This document shows positions 26,640 through 55,675 of a stretch of DNA of 64,000 nt, piece by piece. The stretch lies in assembly GCF_003018255.1 (NCBI RefSeq), contig NZ_CP027440.1; one strand, given 5' to 3'. How positions within the stretch are numbered: the first letter of the stretch is position 1; each line of letters opens with the position of its first letter. Below the pieces are notes generated by a model, which was not told where the DNA came from, searched no databases, and was given only the letters and a program-made list of their open reading frames with translations. The translations under genes were made by a program, and so were the position numbers. This DNA comes from Escherichia coli. GTDB taxonomy: Bacteria; Pseudomonadota; Gammaproteobacteria; Enterobacterales; Enterobacteriaceae.

Positions 26640-27317
<678 letters not shown>

Positions 27318-28330: not shown

Positions 28331-28682
28331 CCTTTCTCCCACAAATATCTAAACCTAAGTAAAGCGTGGAGTGTACTGGATATACCCAATGCTGGTTGAG
28401 CATTTGTTGAAAAAATTTTCCCCCGTTTTGACTAAAATGCGCCAGGATTGATGGAATCATTAGTCTGGTGATTAGGAATAATCTGGATGAATGACAGGGA
28501 AAACATGCGTAATACTTATGCAGTTCTCTGAAAAAGTGATTTAAATTTAGATGGATAGCGGTGTATGGAAACGTTCTGTTACATGAAATGGCCCGTTAGA
28601 CATCACAAATCGCGAAGAGTTTCCCATTAATTTTTGATATATTTAAAACTTAGGACTTATTTGAATCACATTTGAGGTGGTT

Positions 28683-30830: not shown

Positions 30831-31101
30831 ATGCCACTATCGTAACAAACGCCATGTGCTTACCCTGGCGTCAAGGGTCAATACCTGCAAGAGTGCGTGG
30901 AGAGGGGAAAGGGGTCCGCATCCGCGAGCCGCAATATACGCAGGGCTGCAAGAAGATAGAGCGAGCCGCCGTTCAGGTCAACTACTGACGAACAAATCTT
31001 TTGCGAAGGGGATTGCAAATCCGACAAAAAGTGGGGTTTTTCAGACCAAAACGCGTTATGCCTGCATAAAAGCAGGAGTGAAGCGGCGTACCGCGACGCC
31101 G

Positions 31102-31230
31102 CTATTTATCTGAAGGTTTATCTTGCTGCGGTTTGTTGTTGACCATATCGCACAACATAGAGAGCAGCATTAACCGTACTTTAAAGGGAGAATGACTAAA
31201 CACGCGCATACACCTCTTGAACTCATTCAT
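31102..31230 (-). CDS. mntS: Small protein MntS (42 aa), manganese homeostasis
   Basis: Hand-translated from the minus strand: MNEFKRCMRVFSHSPFKVRLMLLSMLCDMVNNKPQQDKPSDK*; below the ORF-track length cutoff. Confidence 0.8.
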   Translation of the reverse strand: MNEFKRCMRVFSHSPFKVRLMLLSMLCDMVNNKPQQDKPSDK

Positions 31231-31284
31231 AAGACCTCCTGACTTGCTAATCCCGTCGATCCTTGAGGGATGATTGCATTACAT

Positions 31285-31325
31285 ACAGATATAGCACAGG
31301 CTATATTATATAGCTATTGCTAAAA
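31285..31325. promoter_or_regulatory. Putative MntR operator(s) between mntS and mntR
   Basis: Palindromic atagcacaggctatat and the adjacent tatagctattgc resemble the MntR half-site pattern ATAGC...GCTAT; lie ~60-95 bp upstream of mntS. Confidence 0.5.
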
Positions 31326-31415
31326 CGTTAATTTTTTGTACCTTCGCAACTCTGGTTTACAATGTGCGCACGAAATGAGAACGCTATGTATGCGTCACCA
31401 TAATGAGGAAGCACA

Positions 31416-31883
31416 ATGAGTCGTCGCGCAGGTACGCCAACAGCAAAAAAAGTGACGCAGTTAGTGAACGTGGAAGAGCACGTTGAAGGGTTCCGCCAGG
31501 TCAGAGAGGCGCATCGGCGCGAGCTGATTGATGATTACGTTGAGCTGATTTCTGACTTGATCAGGGAAGTGGGGGAAGCTCGTCAGGTAGACATGGCTGC
31601 TCGTTTGGGAGTTTCGCAACCGACGGTGGCTAAAATGCTTAAGCGACTGGCAACCATGGGGCTGATTGAAATGATCCCCTGGCGTGGCGTGTTTTTAACG
31701 GCAGAAGGAGAGAAACTGGCGCAGGAAAGCCGCGAGCGACATCAGATAGTCGAAAATTTCTTGTTGGTGTTGGGCGTCAGTCCGGAAATCGCCCGTCGCG
31801 ACGCGGAAGGCATGGAGCACCATGTTAGTGAAGAGACGCTGGATGCCTTTCGTTTGTTTACCCAGAAACACGGTGCCAAATGA
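31416..31883 (+). CDS. mntR: Mn(II)-responsive transcriptional regulator (DtxR family)
   Basis: 155 aa; HTH ([17 protein letters not shown]) followed by metal-binding domain. Confidence 0.92.
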
Positions 31884-32998
31884 GCCTGCCTTTTTTACGC
31901 ACGCTGCAAGGCGATCGTTTTTTTCAGTTATTAATTCTTGTTGGCATCGGATTAAGTTTTTTCGTTCCCTTTGCACCGAAATCCTGGCCTGCTGCTATCG
32001 ACTGGCACACCATCATCACCTTAAGCGGCCTGATGCTGCTGACCAAAGGTGTGGAGTTAAGCGGTTATTTTGATGTGCTGGGGCGCAAAATGGTGCGCCG
32101 CTTTGCTACGGAGCGTCGGCTGGCGATGTTTATGGTGCTGGCGGCGGCGCTGCTTTCTACCTTTCTGACCAACGATGTCGCGCTGTTTATTGTTGTTCCG
32201 CTGACTATCACGCTAAAAAGACTGTGTGAGATCCCGGTTAATCGGCTGATTATTTTTGAGGCGCTGGCAGTCAACGCTGGTTCGCTACTGACGCCAATTG
32301 GCAACCCGCAAAATATTCTTATCTGGGGACGTTCTGGTCTTTCGTTTGCCGGATTTATTGCCCAAATGGCACCGCTGGCTGGCGCAATGATGCTGACACT
32401 CCTGCTGTTGTGCTGGTGTTGTTTCCCTGGAAAGGCGCTGCAATACCATACGGGGGCGCAAACGCCGGAGTGGAAACCGCGGCTGGTGTGGAGTTGTCTG
32501 GGGCTGTATATCGTCTTTCTGATGGCGCTGGAGTTAAAACAAGAGCTGTGGGGACTGGTGATTGTGGCGGTGGGCTTTGCGCTGCTGGCACGTCGCGTGG
32601 TGCTCAGTGTGGACTGGACGCTGCTGCTGGTGTTTATGGCGATGTTTATCGACGTCCATTTACTAACCCAACTGCCAGCTTTGCAGGGGGTGTTAAGTAA
32701 CGTGAGTCATTTATCCGAACCCGGATTATGGTTAACGGCAATCGGTTTATCGCAGGTGATCAGTAACGTGCCGAGTACCATATTGTTGCTGAACTATGTG
32801 CCGCCGTCGTTGCTGCTGGCATGGGCGGTAAACGTAGGGGGCTTTGGTTTATTACCCGGATCGCTGGCAAATTTGATTGCGTTACGGATGGCGAACGATC
32901 GCCGTATCTGGTGGCGTTTTCATCTTTATTCGATACCGATGCTGTTGTGGGCGGCGCTGGTGGGATATGTTTTGTTGGTTATGATCCCGGCCTGGTAG
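31880..32998 (+). CDS. ybiR: Inner membrane transporter
   Basis: 372-aa polytopic membrane protein, 4-bp overlap with mntR. Confidence 0.85.
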
Positions 32999-35847: not shown

Positions 35848-35946
35848 GCCTGATGCGCTATGCTTATCAGGCCTACGCAGTACCTGCAATATATTGAATC
35901 TGCAGGACTTTGTAGGCCGGATAAGGCGTTAACGCCGCATCAGGCA
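35848..35946. repeat. BIME (two inverted REP units), near-identical to the copy at 11050-11148
   Basis: gcctgatgcgctatgcttatcaggcctacg ... gtaggccggataaggcgttaacgccgcatcaggcat. Confidence 0.8.
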
Positions 35947-51039: not shown

Positions 51040-51215
51040 TTACGTTTGAATATTGCTTGAAAGGGTAATCACCTCACAGGAAATTATTGCCCTAAGCAAG
51101 TGTTGTAACTTTCTGCTGATTTTGTAGAATCGGGTAATTTGGTTAAAAAGCCGCAGCAAGGGACTATTTTGCAGCGGCACAGCGTTCAGACAGTTATTTT
51201 GTTAAATGTATTAAC

Positions 51216-53564
51216 ATGCTGAGTTTATACGAAAAGATAAAGATAAGGCTGATAATTTTATTTTTATTGGCAGCACTGTCATTTATTGGTCTTTTTTTCA
51301 TCATTAACTATCAACTGGTATCGGAACGCGCGGTAAAACGTGCCGATAGCCGCTTTGAACTTATTCAGAAAAACGTTGGCTATTTCTTTAAAGATATTGA
51401 ACGTTCGGCCCTGACATTAAAGGACTCACTATATTTATTAAAAAATACAGAGGAGATTCAACGCGCCGTAATTCTGAAAATGGAAATGATGCCATTTTTA
51501 GACTCGGTGGGACTGGTACTTGATGATAATAAATATTATCTCTTTTCGCGGAGGGCGAATGATAAAATCGTTGTTTATCATCAGGAACAAGTAAATGGAC
51601 CGCTTGTCGACGAGTCAGGGCGGGTTATTTTTGCCGATTTTAACCCATCGAAACGACCGTGGTCGATGGCTTCAGATGACTCTAACAACAGCTGGAATCC
51701 GGCATACAATTGCTTTGATCGTCCGGGTAAAAAATGTATCTCTTTTACGCTACGCATCAACGGCAAAGATCACGATTTGTTAGTGGTGGATAAAATTCAT
51801 GTCGATTTAAACTGGCGATATCTGAACGAGTATCTTGATCACATCAGCGCTAATGATGAAGTTCTATTTTTAAAGCAAGGTCATGAGATCATTGCCAAGA
51901 ATCAACTCGCGCGTGAAAAATTGATTATTTATAATAGCGAAGGTAATTATAATATTATTGATTCTGTCGATACGGAATATATTGAAAAAACATCAGCGGT
52001 GCCAAACAACGCATTATTCGAAATCTATTTTTATTATCCTGGTGGTAATTTATTGAACGCATCAGATAAACTTTTTTATCTGCCGTTTGCGTTCATTATT
52101 ATCGTATTGTTGGTGGTTTATTTAATGACCACTCGTGTGTTCCGTCGGCAATTTTCTGAAATGACCGAGCTGGTTAATACGCTGGCGTTTTTGCCCGACT
52201 CAACGGATCAGATCGAGGCTCTGAAAATTCGCGAAGGCGATGCGAAAGAGATTATCAGCATCAAAAATTCGATCGCGGAAATGAAAGATGCCGAAATTGA
52301 ACGGTCAAATAAATTGCTCTCACTGATCTCTTACGATCAGGAAAGCGGTTTTATTAAAAATATGGCGATTATTGAATCCAACAATAATCAGTATCTGGCT
52401 GTGGGGATCATCAAACTGTGTGGTCTGGAAGCTGTGGAAGCGGTGTTTGGTGTTGATGAACGCAATAAAATCGTCAGGAAATTGTGTCAGCGAATTGCCG
52501 AGAAATATGCGCAATGCTGCGATATCGTGACATTTAATGCCGATCTCTATTTACTCCTGTGCCGGGAAAATGTACAGACGTTTACCCGTAAGATAGCGAC
52601 GGTAAACGATTTTGACAGCAGTTTTGGCTACCGCAATCTGCGCATCCATAAGTCTGCTATTTGTGAACCTTTGCAGGGGGAAAACGCCTGGAGTTACGCA
52701 GAAAAGCTGAAACTGGCGATTTCCAGTATCCGCAACCATATGTTCTCAGAGTTTATTTTCTGTGATGATGCGAAACTCAACGAAATAGAAGAGAATATCT
52801 GGATTGCGCGTAATATTCGCCATGCAATGGAAATTGGCGAACTATTCCTCGTCTATCAACCGATCGTTGATATTAACACCCGCGCCATTCTGGGCGCGGA
52901 GGCGTTGTGCCGTTGGGTGTCTGCGGAGCGGGGGATCATTTCACCGCTGAAGTTCATTACCATTGCTGAAGATATCGGGTTTATCAATGAGCTGGGCTAT
53001 CAAATTATTAAAACCGCGATGGGTGAATTCAGACATTTTAGTCAGCGTGCGTCGCTGAAGGATGATTTCTTACTGCATATTAATGTTTCGCCCTGGCAGT
53101 TAAACGAACCACACTTTCATGAGCGTTTTACTACCATCATGAAAGAAAATGGCCTGAAGGCGAACAGCCTTTGTGTTGAGATCACTGAAACCGTGATTGA
53201 GCGAATTAATGAACATTTTTATCTCAATATTGAACAACTGCGTAAACAAGGGGTACGGATATCGATTGATGACTTTGGCACCGGTTTGTCAAACCTGAAA
53301 CGTTTTTATGAAATTAATCCAGACAGCATAAAGGTGGACTCGCAGTTTACCGGCAATATTTTTGGTACTGCGGGAAAAATTGTGCGCATTATTTTCGATC
53401 TGGCACGCTATAACCGGATCCCGGTGATTGCGGAAGGCGTAGAGAGCGAAGACGTTGCGCGCGAATTAATCAAATTAGGATGTGTTCAGGCTCAGGGGTA
53501 TCTGTACCAGAAACCCATGCCATTCTCCGCCTGGGATAAAAGTGGAAAATTAGTAAAAGAGTAG
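51216..53564 (+). CDS. pdeI: Membrane-anchored c-di-GMP phosphodiesterase (EAL domain)
   Basis: 782 aa; N-terminal TM/periplasmic region; EAL motif (GAEALCRW) in the C-terminal domain. Confidence 0.9.
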
Positions 53565-54940: not shown

Positions 54941-54969
54941 ATGAATGTGGTAAATCATTTGCAAACATT

Positions 54970-55299
54970 TTACTTTGCAAAAACTTCCGGCCCTTTTATT
55001 GCCAATGTATTCAAAATACGTAATGCCGGGCCGCTCGGTTTTATTTCATTACGTTCCCATTTCGAGACACTTTCTTTTGACATTCCCATTGTATGTGCCA
55101 GCACGGATTGTGACATGCCGTATCGGGTGCGGATGGCTTTGATCTCTTCACCCGTCATTGATTTGACTTTGGCTATACGGGCGCTGACTTCACGAGCTTT
55201 GACCATGACGGCAATGGCATCAACTTCACTATCAGACATCAGGCCCAGTGCATTCAGTTCCTTTGCATCTTCCAGCATCATTTGTAATTTATCGCTCAT
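54970..55299 (-). CDS. Type II antitoxin, XRE-family helix-turn-helix protein (HigA-like)
   Basis: 109 aa; HTH segment GMSQSVLAHTMGMSKESVSKWERNEIKPSGPALRIL; start overlaps the upstream toxin ORF by 11 bp. Confidence 0.75.
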   Translation of the reverse strand: MSDKLQMMLEDAKELNALGLMSDSEVDAIAVMVKAREVSARIAKVKSMTGEEIKAIRTRYGMSQSVLAHTMGMSKESVSKWERNEIKPSGPALRILNTLAIKGPEVFAK

Positions 55300-55675
55300 T
55301 TTTCACCTCAATCAAAAAGCCAGTTTCGATCAAATCCTCTATTTGCTTATTGCTAAAGGCCAGAAATGCATTTGCCATTTTTTTGTAGGCCGCCAGTTCA
55401 TCATCTTCGATTTCTTTGGTTCCTTTACTGCTTAGACCACTCTTGGACCAACCATCATAAAAAAACACATGATTTGCTGATTTAAAAAAGATAATTGTTC
55501 TGGCTCCACCACTCTTTCCTTGTTGGAGGGGTAAACGTTTTTTGATGACACCGCTACCTAAATCAGCCTCCCATATGCCCTGAATCACTTCTTCAGCGGC
55601 AGCCATGAGAACTTTATCGTGAATACCAAGTTTTTTCGTGCTTTGGCTGAATCGTCTTGCCTTATACACACCCAT
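55289..55675 (-). CDS. Type II toxin, RelE/HigB-like (probable mRNA interferase)
   Basis: 128 aa; family-typical segments LPLQQGKSGGARTIIFF and FFYDGWSKS; AAGGA ribosome-binding site ~7 bp upstream of the ATG; toxin-first operon order. Confidence 0.7.
   Translation of the reverse strand: MGVYKARRFSQSTKKLGIHDKVLMAAAEEVIQGIWEADLGSGVIKKRLPLQQGKSGGARTIIFFKSANHVFFYDGWSKSGLSSKGTKEIEDDELAAYKKMANAFLAFSNKQIEDLIETGFLIEVKNER

What the first reader, a model, noticed from the sequence alone, without database searches (positions are those of the whole stretch)
31102..31330. mntS (42-aa protein) missed by the ORF track, with candidate MntR operators
Hand translation of the minus strand 31230-31102 gives MNEFKRCMRVFSHSPFKVRLMLLSMLCDMVNNKPQQDKPSDK, the small Mn-chaperone-like protein MntS. 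The divergent spacer before mntR contains two ATAGC...GCTAT-type dyads (31289-31320), consistent with MntR repression of mntS. This shows that sub-60-aa genes exist in this window and that similar ones could be missed elsewhere.
Basis: partly seen in the sequence, partly recalled or inferred. Interest (0 to 1): 0.35.

Follow-up and report, generated by a model that had tools for sequence, protein, structure and literature searches.

The report
Known E. coli mntS gene, MntR operators
This is the already characterised E. coli small-protein gene mntS (42 aa) with its two known MntR repressor sites over its promoter; it is real and conserved, and it was missed only because the ORF list stopped at 60 aa.

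Summary
Window 31102-31230 (-) encodes exactly the 42-aa peptide quoted. RefSeq annotates it as mntS, and it scores 96 bits against the NCBIfam MntS equivalog (cutoff 36). The window is E. coli chromosome with gene order opgE, mntS, then divergently mntR-ybiR.

Two ATAGC-N4-GCTAT dyads lie in the 185-bp spacer. As 18-bp sites they are 31289-31306 (perfect) and 31308-31325, 19 bp centre to centre. In the K-12 annotation the RybA/mntS transcript starts at window 31297, so the sites span about +9 to -28 and cover the TSS and the TATAAT -10. That geometry fits repression by promoter occlusion.

Across 80 Enterobacteriaceae mntR loci:
- The ORF is present in 77, with pN/pS 0.17, an invariant ATG and a near-universal AGGAGG.
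- Both dyads are the most conserved part of the spacer, always 19 bp apart.
- The same core occurs at mntH, mntP and dps.

All of this is published (Waters 2011; Martin 2015; Wright 2023/24; PMC11275975). The chaperone idea was tested and not supported, and MntS is now shown to bind and inhibit the MntP exporter.

Novelty: already known. Interest: low.

The parts
31102..31230 (-). mntS coding sequence (42 aa plus TAG stop)
Evidence: RefSeq annotates it as mntS, WP_001001761.1. It scores 96 bits against NCBIfam NF033226 small_MntS, cutoff 36. It is present in 77 of 80 orthologous loci with a coding signature: variable columns by codon position 20/14/34 of 37, and pN/pS 0.17.
31235..31240 (-). 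Shine-Dalgarno sequence AGGAGG, 4 nt upstream of the mntS ATG
   Evidence: Read directly from the sequence. AGGAGG or a near variant is present upstream of the ATG in nearly all 78 orthologues, although the flanking UTR bases vary.
30958..31297 (-). RybA/mntS transcript as annotated in K-12 (ncRNA rybA b4416); the 5' end (TSS) is at 31297
   Evidence: K-12 annotates rybA at 852725-853064. K-12 and the window are collinear with only 4 substitutions over 600 bp, so the coordinates map directly. Martin 2015 describes several RNA species of 205 to about 400 nt with a common 5' end.
31305..31310 (-). mntS promoter -10 hexamer TATAAT
   Evidence: It lies 7 nt upstream of the annotated 5' end at 31297. 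Shimada 2014 predicts the same hexamer for mntS, in a spacer bound by RpoD holoenzyme.
31326..31331 (-). Candidate mntS -35 hexamer TTAACG (I count a 15-nt spacer; the paper gives 16)
   Evidence: Predicted in PMC3946193. The bases are highly conserved across genera. The consensus scanner did not call it because of the short spacer. This assignment is an inference.
31289..31306 (.). MntR operator 1: perfect dyad ATATAGC-ACAG-GCTATAT, spanning +9 to -9 of the mntS promoter and centred on the TSS
   Evidence: locate it. Mean column conservation is 0.99 over 74 distinct spacers, and the core is perfect in all 74. The same core occurs at mntH, mntP and dps. PMC11275975 describes paired MntR sites overlapping the mntS promoter.
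31308..31325 (.). MntR operator 2: ATATAGC-TATT-GCTAAAA (core has 1 mismatch), spanning -11 to -28 and overlapping the -10 hexamer
   Evidence: locate it. Core conservation is 0.95; it is present at <=1 mismatch in 72 of 74 spacers and is a perfect dyad in several genera. It always starts 19 bp from operator 1.
31082..31103 (-). GC-rich stem-loop that begins inside the stop codon; the first (leaky) terminator of the mntS transcript
   Evidence: The scan finds an 8-bp stem with 6 GC pairs. The hairpin is present in all 76 distinct orthologous downstream sequences, and a U-rich tail follows it in 50 of them. The E. coli tail UUCACUCC is degenerate, which fits the several longer RNA species reported.
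31416..31883 (+). mntR, the Mn-sensing DtxR-family regulator that acts on the operators
   Evidence: It scores 269 bits against NCBIfam NF008273 MntR equivalog (cutoff 153) and carries Pfam Fe_dep_repress and Fe_dep_repr_C. RefSeq annotates it as mntR.
31336..31363 (+). Candidate mntR promoter TTGTAC-16-TACAAT, 13 bp from operator 2
   Evidence: Both hexamers are nearly invariant across genera while the spacer between them varies. This is an inference only. Shimada 2014 predicts a different mntR promoter, ATTACA-18-TATATT at 31278-31307.

Best explanation
This is the E. coli mntS gene, carried on the RybA transcript, together with its Mn-responsive control region. The 185-bp divergent spacer between mntS and mntR holds two adjacent 18-bp MntR operators (31289-31306 and 31308-31325). 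Together they cover the mntS transcription start and -10 element. When intracellular Mn is high, Mn-loaded MntR dimers occupy both sites, probably cooperatively given the 19-bp spacing, and block RNA polymerase, so mntS is off. When Mn is scarce, MntR leaves and the strong TATAAT promoter fires. The 42-aa MntS is then translated from a canonical AGGAGG-N4-ATG start. [quoted passage not shown] Shown here: ORF identity, family membership, purifying selection, conserved translation signals, operator sequence, position and conservation, and the shared core with mntH, mntP and dps. Taken from the literature: MntR/Mn-dependent repression, protein expression and MntP inhibition. Inferred: steric occlusion and cooperativity.
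For: The translation is exact. RefSeq annotates mntS at this position, and a homologous stretch is present in 5,421 of 5,426 complete E. coli genomes. NCBIfam MntS equivalog scores 96 bits against a cutoff of 36, and 247 database homologues are named MntS or carry PF26599. In 80 mntR loci from about 20 genera, 77 carry the ORF divergent from mntR. The ATG is invariant, AGGAGG is conserved, third-codon-position variation dominates, and pN/pS is 0.17. The extended dyad is enriched (3 found, 0.11 expected, 0 of 100 shuffles). Both dyads are the best-conserved block of the spacer (0.99 and 0.95 against about 0.77 for the flanks), with fixed 19-bp spacing. The K-12 rybA 5' end maps to 31297, which puts the operators at +9 to -28. 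The same core occurs at mntH, mntP (two sites) and dps. Literature: transcription of mntS is repressed by MntR:Mn; a PmntS-gfp fusion is repressed by Mn only when MntR is present; paired MntR sites overlap the mntS promoter with the spacing of the cooperative B. subtilis sites; MntS binds and inhibits MntP.
Against: No experiment was or could be done on this strain. The primary paper that defines the sites and the TSS (Waters 2011) was not readable here, so the TSS rests on the K-12 annotation plus a perfectly placed TATAAT. The -35 element is poor (15-nt spacer), and the consensus scanner did not call the promoter. A 205-nt RNA starting at 31297 would end inside the terminator hairpin (about 31093), so either the reported size or the mapped 5' end is approximate. 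Cooperativity of E. coli MntR at these sites is inferred by analogy with B. subtilis.
Confidence: 0.95

Rival explanations
1. The locus acts as the non-coding small RNA RybA, and the ORF is incidental or a secondary feature.
For: K-12 annotates a 340-nt ncRNA rybA around the ORF. RybA has been reported to repress aroF and aroL under peroxide stress (Gerstle 2012, cited) and to be bound by ProQ and RhsFI.
Against: The ORF has a strong coding signature (pN/pS 0.17, third-position variation, invariant ATG, conserved SD). No conserved, covarying structure was found in the 5' UTR, and there is no Rfam match. Frameshift alleles abolish the Mn phenotype, and the effect is Hfq-independent. A second, RNA-level role is not excluded.
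Confidence: 0.03
2. MntS is a manganese metallochaperone that delivers Mn to client enzymes.
For: This was the early hypothesis, based on mntS mutants being defective in Mn-dependent activities. The conserved Cys7, His13 and Cys27 could in principle ligate metal.
Against: Purified MntS did not aid MnSOD metallation. [quoted passage not shown] MntS changes total cellular Mn, and loss of MntP mimics MntS overproduction. MntS needs MntP to act and binds it.
Confidence: 0.04
3. The paired dyads mainly serve autoregulation of the divergent mntR-ybiR operon, and any effect on mntS is secondary.
For: The sites lie in the shared spacer. One predicted mntR promoter (ATTACA-18-TATATT, 31278-31307) overlaps operator 1. 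The conserved TTGTAC-16-TACAAT promoter starts 13 bp from operator 2.
Against: The sites are centred on the annotated mntS TSS and -10. In relatives the same pair sits at the same distance upstream of an MntS-like ORF or of sitA. Mn/MntR repression of PmntS has been shown experimentally. I found no report of mntR autoregulation in the papers held. Both roles could coexist.
Confidence: 0.05

Closest known systems
E. coli K-12 mntS (b4705) / rybA (b4416) with its MntR-repressed promoter (Waters, Sandoval and Storz 2011; Martin et al. 2015; Wright et al. 2023/2024)
   Same: The protein sequence is identical. The DNA differs from K-12 at 4 of 600 positions, and the one substitution inside the ORF is synonymous. 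The spacer is identical, and so are both operators, the -10 hexamer, the SD and the neighbouring genes (opgE, mntR-ybiR).
   Different: Nothing of substance. This is the same gene in another E. coli strain (100% identical to strain JNE112863).
Signal peptide of MntS-like SitA proteins (sitABCD Mn importer divergent from mntR)
   Same: The motif SHSPF-(K/R)(V/L)RLML and the length are shared. The arrangement is divergent from mntR, and the same paired MntR boxes lie 19 bp apart upstream (L089). This is consistent with the published origin of MntS from a SitA signal peptide.
   Different: MntS has lost the AXA cleavage motif and the periplasmic binding domain, and it is less hydrophobic. A single-pass MntS profile did not retrieve any full-length SitA at E<=1e-3. 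The link was seen only through a frameshift-split sitA.
Paired MntR operators of B. subtilis mneP/mneS
   Same: There are two adjacent 18-bp inverted-repeat sites with the same spacing, which suggests cooperative dimer-dimer binding.
   Different: In B. subtilis the paired sites activate exporter genes from upstream positions. Here they overlap the core promoter and repress. The half-site sequence is the enterobacterial ATAGC type.
Single MntR box of E. coli mntH (AAACATAGC-N4-GCTATGTTT) and the box at dps
   Same: The ATAGC-N4-GCTAT core is identical, and these genes are also repressed by MntR:Mn.
   Different: mntH and dps each carry one site, whereas mntS carries two in tandem.

Membership tests
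MntS small protein (NCBIfam NF033226 / Pfam PF26599) | The sequence matches the curated equivalog model above its cutoff | tested here: met
   96 bits against a cutoff of 36, E 6.3e-28, residues 1-39 on profile positions 1-40 of 41. The local Pfam copy gave no hit, but database homologues carry the precomputed family PF26599:MntS.
MntS small protein (NCBIfam NF033226 / Pfam PF26599) | About 41-44 aa with the conserved N-terminal core MNE..RC..VF.HSPF.VRL.L | tested here: met
   The protein is 42 aa. M1 N2 E3 R6 C7 V10 F11 H13 S14 P15 F16 V18 R19 L20 L22 K33 are invariant in 42 diverse orthologues, and all are present here.
MntS small protein (NCBIfam NF033226 / Pfam PF26599) | Encoded divergently from mntR | tested here: met
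   The spacer to mntR is 185 bp. The same arrangement holds in 77 of 80 loci. Two exceptions are truncated contigs and one is a secondary deletion.
MntS small protein (NCBIfam NF033226 / Pfam PF26599) | It is a translated protein, not only an RNA | tested here: met
   Computational evidence: pN/pS 0.17, codon-position variation 20/14/34, invariant ATG and conserved AGGAGG. Direct detection of the protein comes from the literature only ('conserved and expressed').
MntS small protein (NCBIfam NF033226 / Pfam PF26599) | Binds and inhibits the MntP exporter and raises intracellular Mn | not testable with these tools
   Reported for the identical K-12 protein.
Enterobacterial MntR operator | Inverted repeat with the ATAGC-N4-GCTAT core shared by validated MntR targets | tested here: met
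   Operator 1 is perfect and operator 2 has 1 mismatch. The same core is found upstream of K-12 mntH (perfect), mntP (one perfect, one with 1 mismatch) and dps (perfect).
Enterobacterial MntR operator | Position compatible with repression (overlap of the core promoter) | tested here: met
   With the K-12 rybA 5' end mapped to 31297 and TATAAT at 31305-31310, the two 18-bp sites span +9 to -28. PMC11275975 states that the two sites overlap the promoter. The TSS comes from annotation and was not measured here.
Enterobacterial MntR operator | Evolutionary conservation above the neutral background | tested here: met
   Conservation is 0.99 and 0.95 against 0.76-0.78 for the flanks over 74 distinct spacers, with invariant 19-bp spacing. 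The same pair is present in distant MntS-like and sitA loci.
Enterobacterial MntR operator | Physical, Mn-dependent binding of MntR | not testable with these tools
   Only literature statements are available. The primary papers (Waters 2011, Yamamoto 2011) were not held.
   The literature tested this and did not support it. MntS gave no stimulation of MnSOD metallation, and mutants of the candidate ligand residues remained active.
Structured regulatory RNA (RybA as an Rfam-type family or riboswitch-like leader) | Conserved secondary structure with covariation | tested here: not met
   There is no Rfam family hit at this locus. RNAalifold on 70 distinct 5' UTRs gives only a trivial 4-bp stem at -1.3 kcal/mol with no compensatory changes. 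Only the terminator hairpin is conserved.

The most novel reading that the evidence does not exclude
The paired MntR operator is bifunctional. Besides occluding the mntS promoter, it may set the level of the divergent, translationally coupled mntR-ybiR operon (autoregulation). The conserved TTGTAC-16-TACAAT promoter begins 13 bp from operator 2, and an alternative predicted promoter overlaps operator 1. If so, the uncharacterised CitMHS-family transporter YbiR, which is coupled to mntR by an ATGA overlap in 75 of 78 loci, would be tied to Mn status. I found no test of this in the papers available. It may already be addressed in Yamamoto 2011 or Waters 2011, which I could not read.
Probability: 0.25. 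Interest if true: 0.25.

Novelty: already known. Interest (0 to 1): 0.08.

Why it matters
For discovery purposes it matters little, because the gene, its regulator, its operators, its target (MntP) and its evolutionary origin are all published. Its value is methodological. It is a clean positive control showing that a 60-aa ORF cutoff hides real, functional genes. In this window the cutoff hides mntS (42 aa), yliM (21 aa) and ybiE (19 aa in K-12). It also shows that a reader working from sequence alone can correctly recover a small gene and its operator.

Tried and rejected
- The Pfam scan of the 42-aa protein gave no family. This is a limitation of the local library copy, because PF26599:MntS exists in the precomputed annotations.
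- An Rfam gathering search of the whole window found nothing at rybA.
- The consensus promoter scanner did not call the mntS promoter, because its spacer is 15 nt. It called the terminator hairpin only on the + strand.
- The 10-base core dyad alone is not statistically enriched in the window. I therefore used the 14-base extended dyad and cross-species conservation.
- I looked for a conserved 5'-UTR structure that might indicate a Mn-sensing leader and found none.
- To confirm the SitA signal-peptide homology I ran a word-indexed profile search (top 120 all MntS) and an exhaustive profile search. The exhaustive search gave 34 hits, none of SitA length. The link appeared only indirectly, through a frameshift-split sitA.
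- Waters 2011 (PMC3194919), Wassarman 2001 (PMC312727) and Yamamoto 2011 (PMC3067631) are not held. The exact published TSS and footprint data could therefore not be checked.
- The idea that the ORF is a chance ORF was rejected on the coding signature and family match.

Full report
**Observation.** The ORF appears in the mechanical six-frame list as soon as the minimum length is lowered to 20 aa, so it was "missed" only because of a 60-aa threshold. It faces away from a 155-aa ORF at 31416-31883 (+), across a 185-bp spacer. The spacer contains ATAGCACAGGCTAT at 31291-31304 (a perfect dyad) and ATAGCTATTGCTAA at 31310-31323 (one mismatch).

**Identity.** A 1.1-kb stretch around the ORF is 100% identical to E. 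coli strain JNE112863. A homologous stretch is present in 5,421 of 5,426 complete E. coli genomes, where the features under the match are annotated mntS, mntR and ybiR. In the identical genome the CDS at window 31102-31230 is "manganase accumulation protein MntS", and its neighbours are opgE, mntR and ybiR.
- The peptide scores 96 bits against the NCBIfam equivalog model small_MntS (cutoff 36).
- The neighbouring protein scores 269 bits against the MntR equivalog (cutoff 153).
- The local Pfam copy gave no hit for the peptide, but homologues in the large protein database carry a precomputed PF26599:MntS family.

**Is the ORF a real gene?** I fetched 80 mntR loci from one genome per species across Escherichia, Citrobacter, Salmonella, Enterobacter, Klebsiella, Raoultella, Kluyvera, Kosakonia, Leclercia, Lelliottia, Franconibacter and other genera.
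- Seventy-seven carry the ORF in the same divergent position.
- Two of the three exceptions are contigs that end just upstream of mntR.
- The third (Citrobacter sp. R56) has an AT-rich insertion that replaced mntS, with its breakpoint inside the first dyad.
- Over the first 37 codons of 75 distinct DNA sequences, 20, 14 and 34 columns vary at codon positions 1, 2 and 3.
- Mean pS is 0.571 and mean pN is 0.096, a ratio of 0.17.
- The start is ATG in 78 of 78, the length is 41-44 aa, and AGGAGG sits a few bases upstream almost everywhere although the surrounding UTR varies.

This is the signature of a translated gene under purifying selection. A profile of 42 diverse orthologues retrieves 247 database proteins, and the top 120 are all MntS of about 42 aa.

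**The operators.**
- *Statistics.* The 10-base core alone is not enriched in 64 kb (3 found, 1.48 expected). The 14-base extended dyad ATATAGC-N4-GCTATAT is enriched at up to two mismatches (3 found, 0.11 expected, 0 of 100 shuffles). The three hits are the two mntS sites and one site in the dps promoter.
- *Conservation.* In an alignment of 74 distinct spacers the two sites form the best-conserved block. Mean column conservation is 0.99 for site 1 and 0.95 for the site-2 core, against 0.76-0.78 for the flanks. Site 1 has a perfect core in all 74. Site 2 is within one mismatch in 72 and is a perfect dyad in several genera. The start-to-start distance is always 19 bp.
- *Shared core.* The same ATAGC-N4-GCTAT core lies upstream of K-12 mntH (perfect), mntP (two sites) and dps. 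All of these are reported MntR targets.

**Position relative to the promoter.** The curated K-12 record annotates the ncRNA rybA at 852725-853064 on the mntS strand. K-12 and the window are collinear here, with four substitutions in 600 bp, and the one inside mntS is synonymous. The rybA 5' end therefore maps to window 31297.
- A perfect TATAAT lies at 31305-31310, 7 nt upstream of that 5' end.
- Shimada et al. 2014 found RpoD holoenzyme binding in this spacer and predicted the same -10, with TTAACG as the -35.
- The 18-bp sites therefore span +9 to -9 (31289-31306) and -11 to -28 (31308-31325). They cover the start site and the -10, which is the classical geometry for repression by occlusion.
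- PMC11275975, citing Waters 2011, says the same: mntS has two MntR sites overlapping the promoter. Read as 18-bp sites, their spacing matches the cooperative paired sites of B. subtilis mneP/mneS.
- Experimentally, mntS transcription is repressed by MntR:Mn. A PmntS-gfp fusion is repressed by Mn only when MntR is present.

**Transcript features.**
- No conserved or covarying structure was found in the 67-nt leader, and Rfam has no match at this locus.
- A GC-rich hairpin that begins inside the stop codon (31082-31103) is conserved in all 76 distinct downstream sequences. In most genera a U-run follows it. In E. coli the tail is degenerate, which fits the several RNA species of 205 to about 400 nt that have been reported.
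- One loose end remains. A 205-nt RNA starting at 31297 would end inside this hairpin, so either the published size or the mapped 5' end is approximate.

**Function.** Martin et al. 2015 found the following:
- Purified MntS did not help metallate MnSOD.
- Mutants of the candidate ligand residues stayed active.
- Frameshift alleles abolished the phenotype, so the product acts as a protein.
- Loss of MntP mimicked MntS overproduction.

Wright et al. then showed that MntS needs MntP to act and binds it. MntS also self-associates in the presence of Mn, which is proposed as its off-switch. An additional RNA-level role for RybA has been reported and is not excluded.

**Origin.** Wright et al. propose that MntS descends from the signal peptide of a SitA encoded divergently from mntR.
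- My exhaustive single-pass profile search found no full-length SitA at E<=1e-3. This is not in conflict with their report, since they needed iterated searches.
- One divergent hit, P0142 (…FSHSPFRLRLMLVGMIVALITGNAQAAD…), is encoded divergently from an mntR gene. It runs, across a frameshift in an A9 tract, straight into a ZnuA/SitA-family protein (…KKFKVVTTFTVIQ…), which is followed by an ABC ATPase and two permeases.
- Its upstream spacer carries the same pair of boxes 19 bp apart, and the proximal box is identical to E. coli site 1.
- A 65-aa standalone MntS-like ORF next to mntR in another lineage has the same pair.

These findings independently support the published model, and they imply that the mntS operator pair was inherited from a sitABCD promoter.

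**Verdict.** Everything is already known, so interest is low. The curated K-12 annotation lists two further sub-60-aa genes in this span, yliM (21 aa) and ybiE (19 aa), plus the sRNAs RybA and ZbiJ.

Noticed in passing
window 27191-27208 (core 27193-27206): A third MntR-type dyad (GTATAGCACCAGCTATGT) lies 50 bp upstream of the dps start codon and overlaps the apparent dps -10 (TATACT). MntR repression of dps is published (Yamamoto 2011, listed in PMC4207228). The window therefore holds two MntR-regulated promoters 4 kb apart.
   Followed up: partly
window 28565-28630 (+) and 15968-16096 (+): There are other sub-60-aa genes in the window. yliM (21 aa) is identical to K-12. ybiE is 19 aa in K-12, but in this strain a substitution removes its stop codon, giving a 42-aa ORF. 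The ZbiJ sRNA (15900-15996, -) overlaps the start of ybiE on the opposite strand.
   Followed up: partly
window 31880-31883 and 31880-32998: mntR and ybiR (a CitMHS-family transporter of unknown substrate) overlap by 4 nt (ATGA). The overlap is conserved in 75 of 78 loci across many genera, which suggests translational coupling of an uncharacterised transporter to the Mn regulator.
   Followed up: partly
window 31336-31363 (+): TTGTAC-16-TACAAT has nearly invariant hexamers and a variable spacer across genera, so it is a likely mntR promoter 13 bp from MntR operator 2. A published prediction instead places the mntR promoter at 31278-31307, overlapping operator 1. Whether MntR autoregulates was not resolved.
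   Followed up: partly
window 35869-35911 (-): This is the only Rfam gathering-level hit in the window: ES036 (CssrF) sRNA, 41.6 bits, in the gap between the convergent 3' ends of ybiT and ybiU.
   Followed up: no
window 11231-11428; about 51204-53551; about 54957-55662: The strain differs from K-12 in three places. ybiA is reduced to a NADAR-family fragment. pdeI is annotated as frameshifted. A RelE/ParE toxin plus HTH antitoxin pair sits between dgcI and rimO, where K-12 has nothing.
   Followed up: no
L014 2100-2420 (Citrobacter sp. R56): mntS has been deleted and replaced by AT-rich foreign DNA that encodes a 265-aa protein. The breakpoint falls inside MntR operator 1, leaving half of operator 1 and all of operator 2 next to mntR.
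   Followed up: partly
L089 1671-2811; L090 4810-5198: L089 shows mntR divergent from a sitABCD operon whose SitA has an MntS-like signal peptide, split from the mature domain by a frameshift in an A9 run (it could be an assembly error). L090 and L091 carry a 65-aa standalone MntS-like ORF. Both L089 and L090 carry the same paired MntR boxes 19 bp apart.
   Followed up: partly
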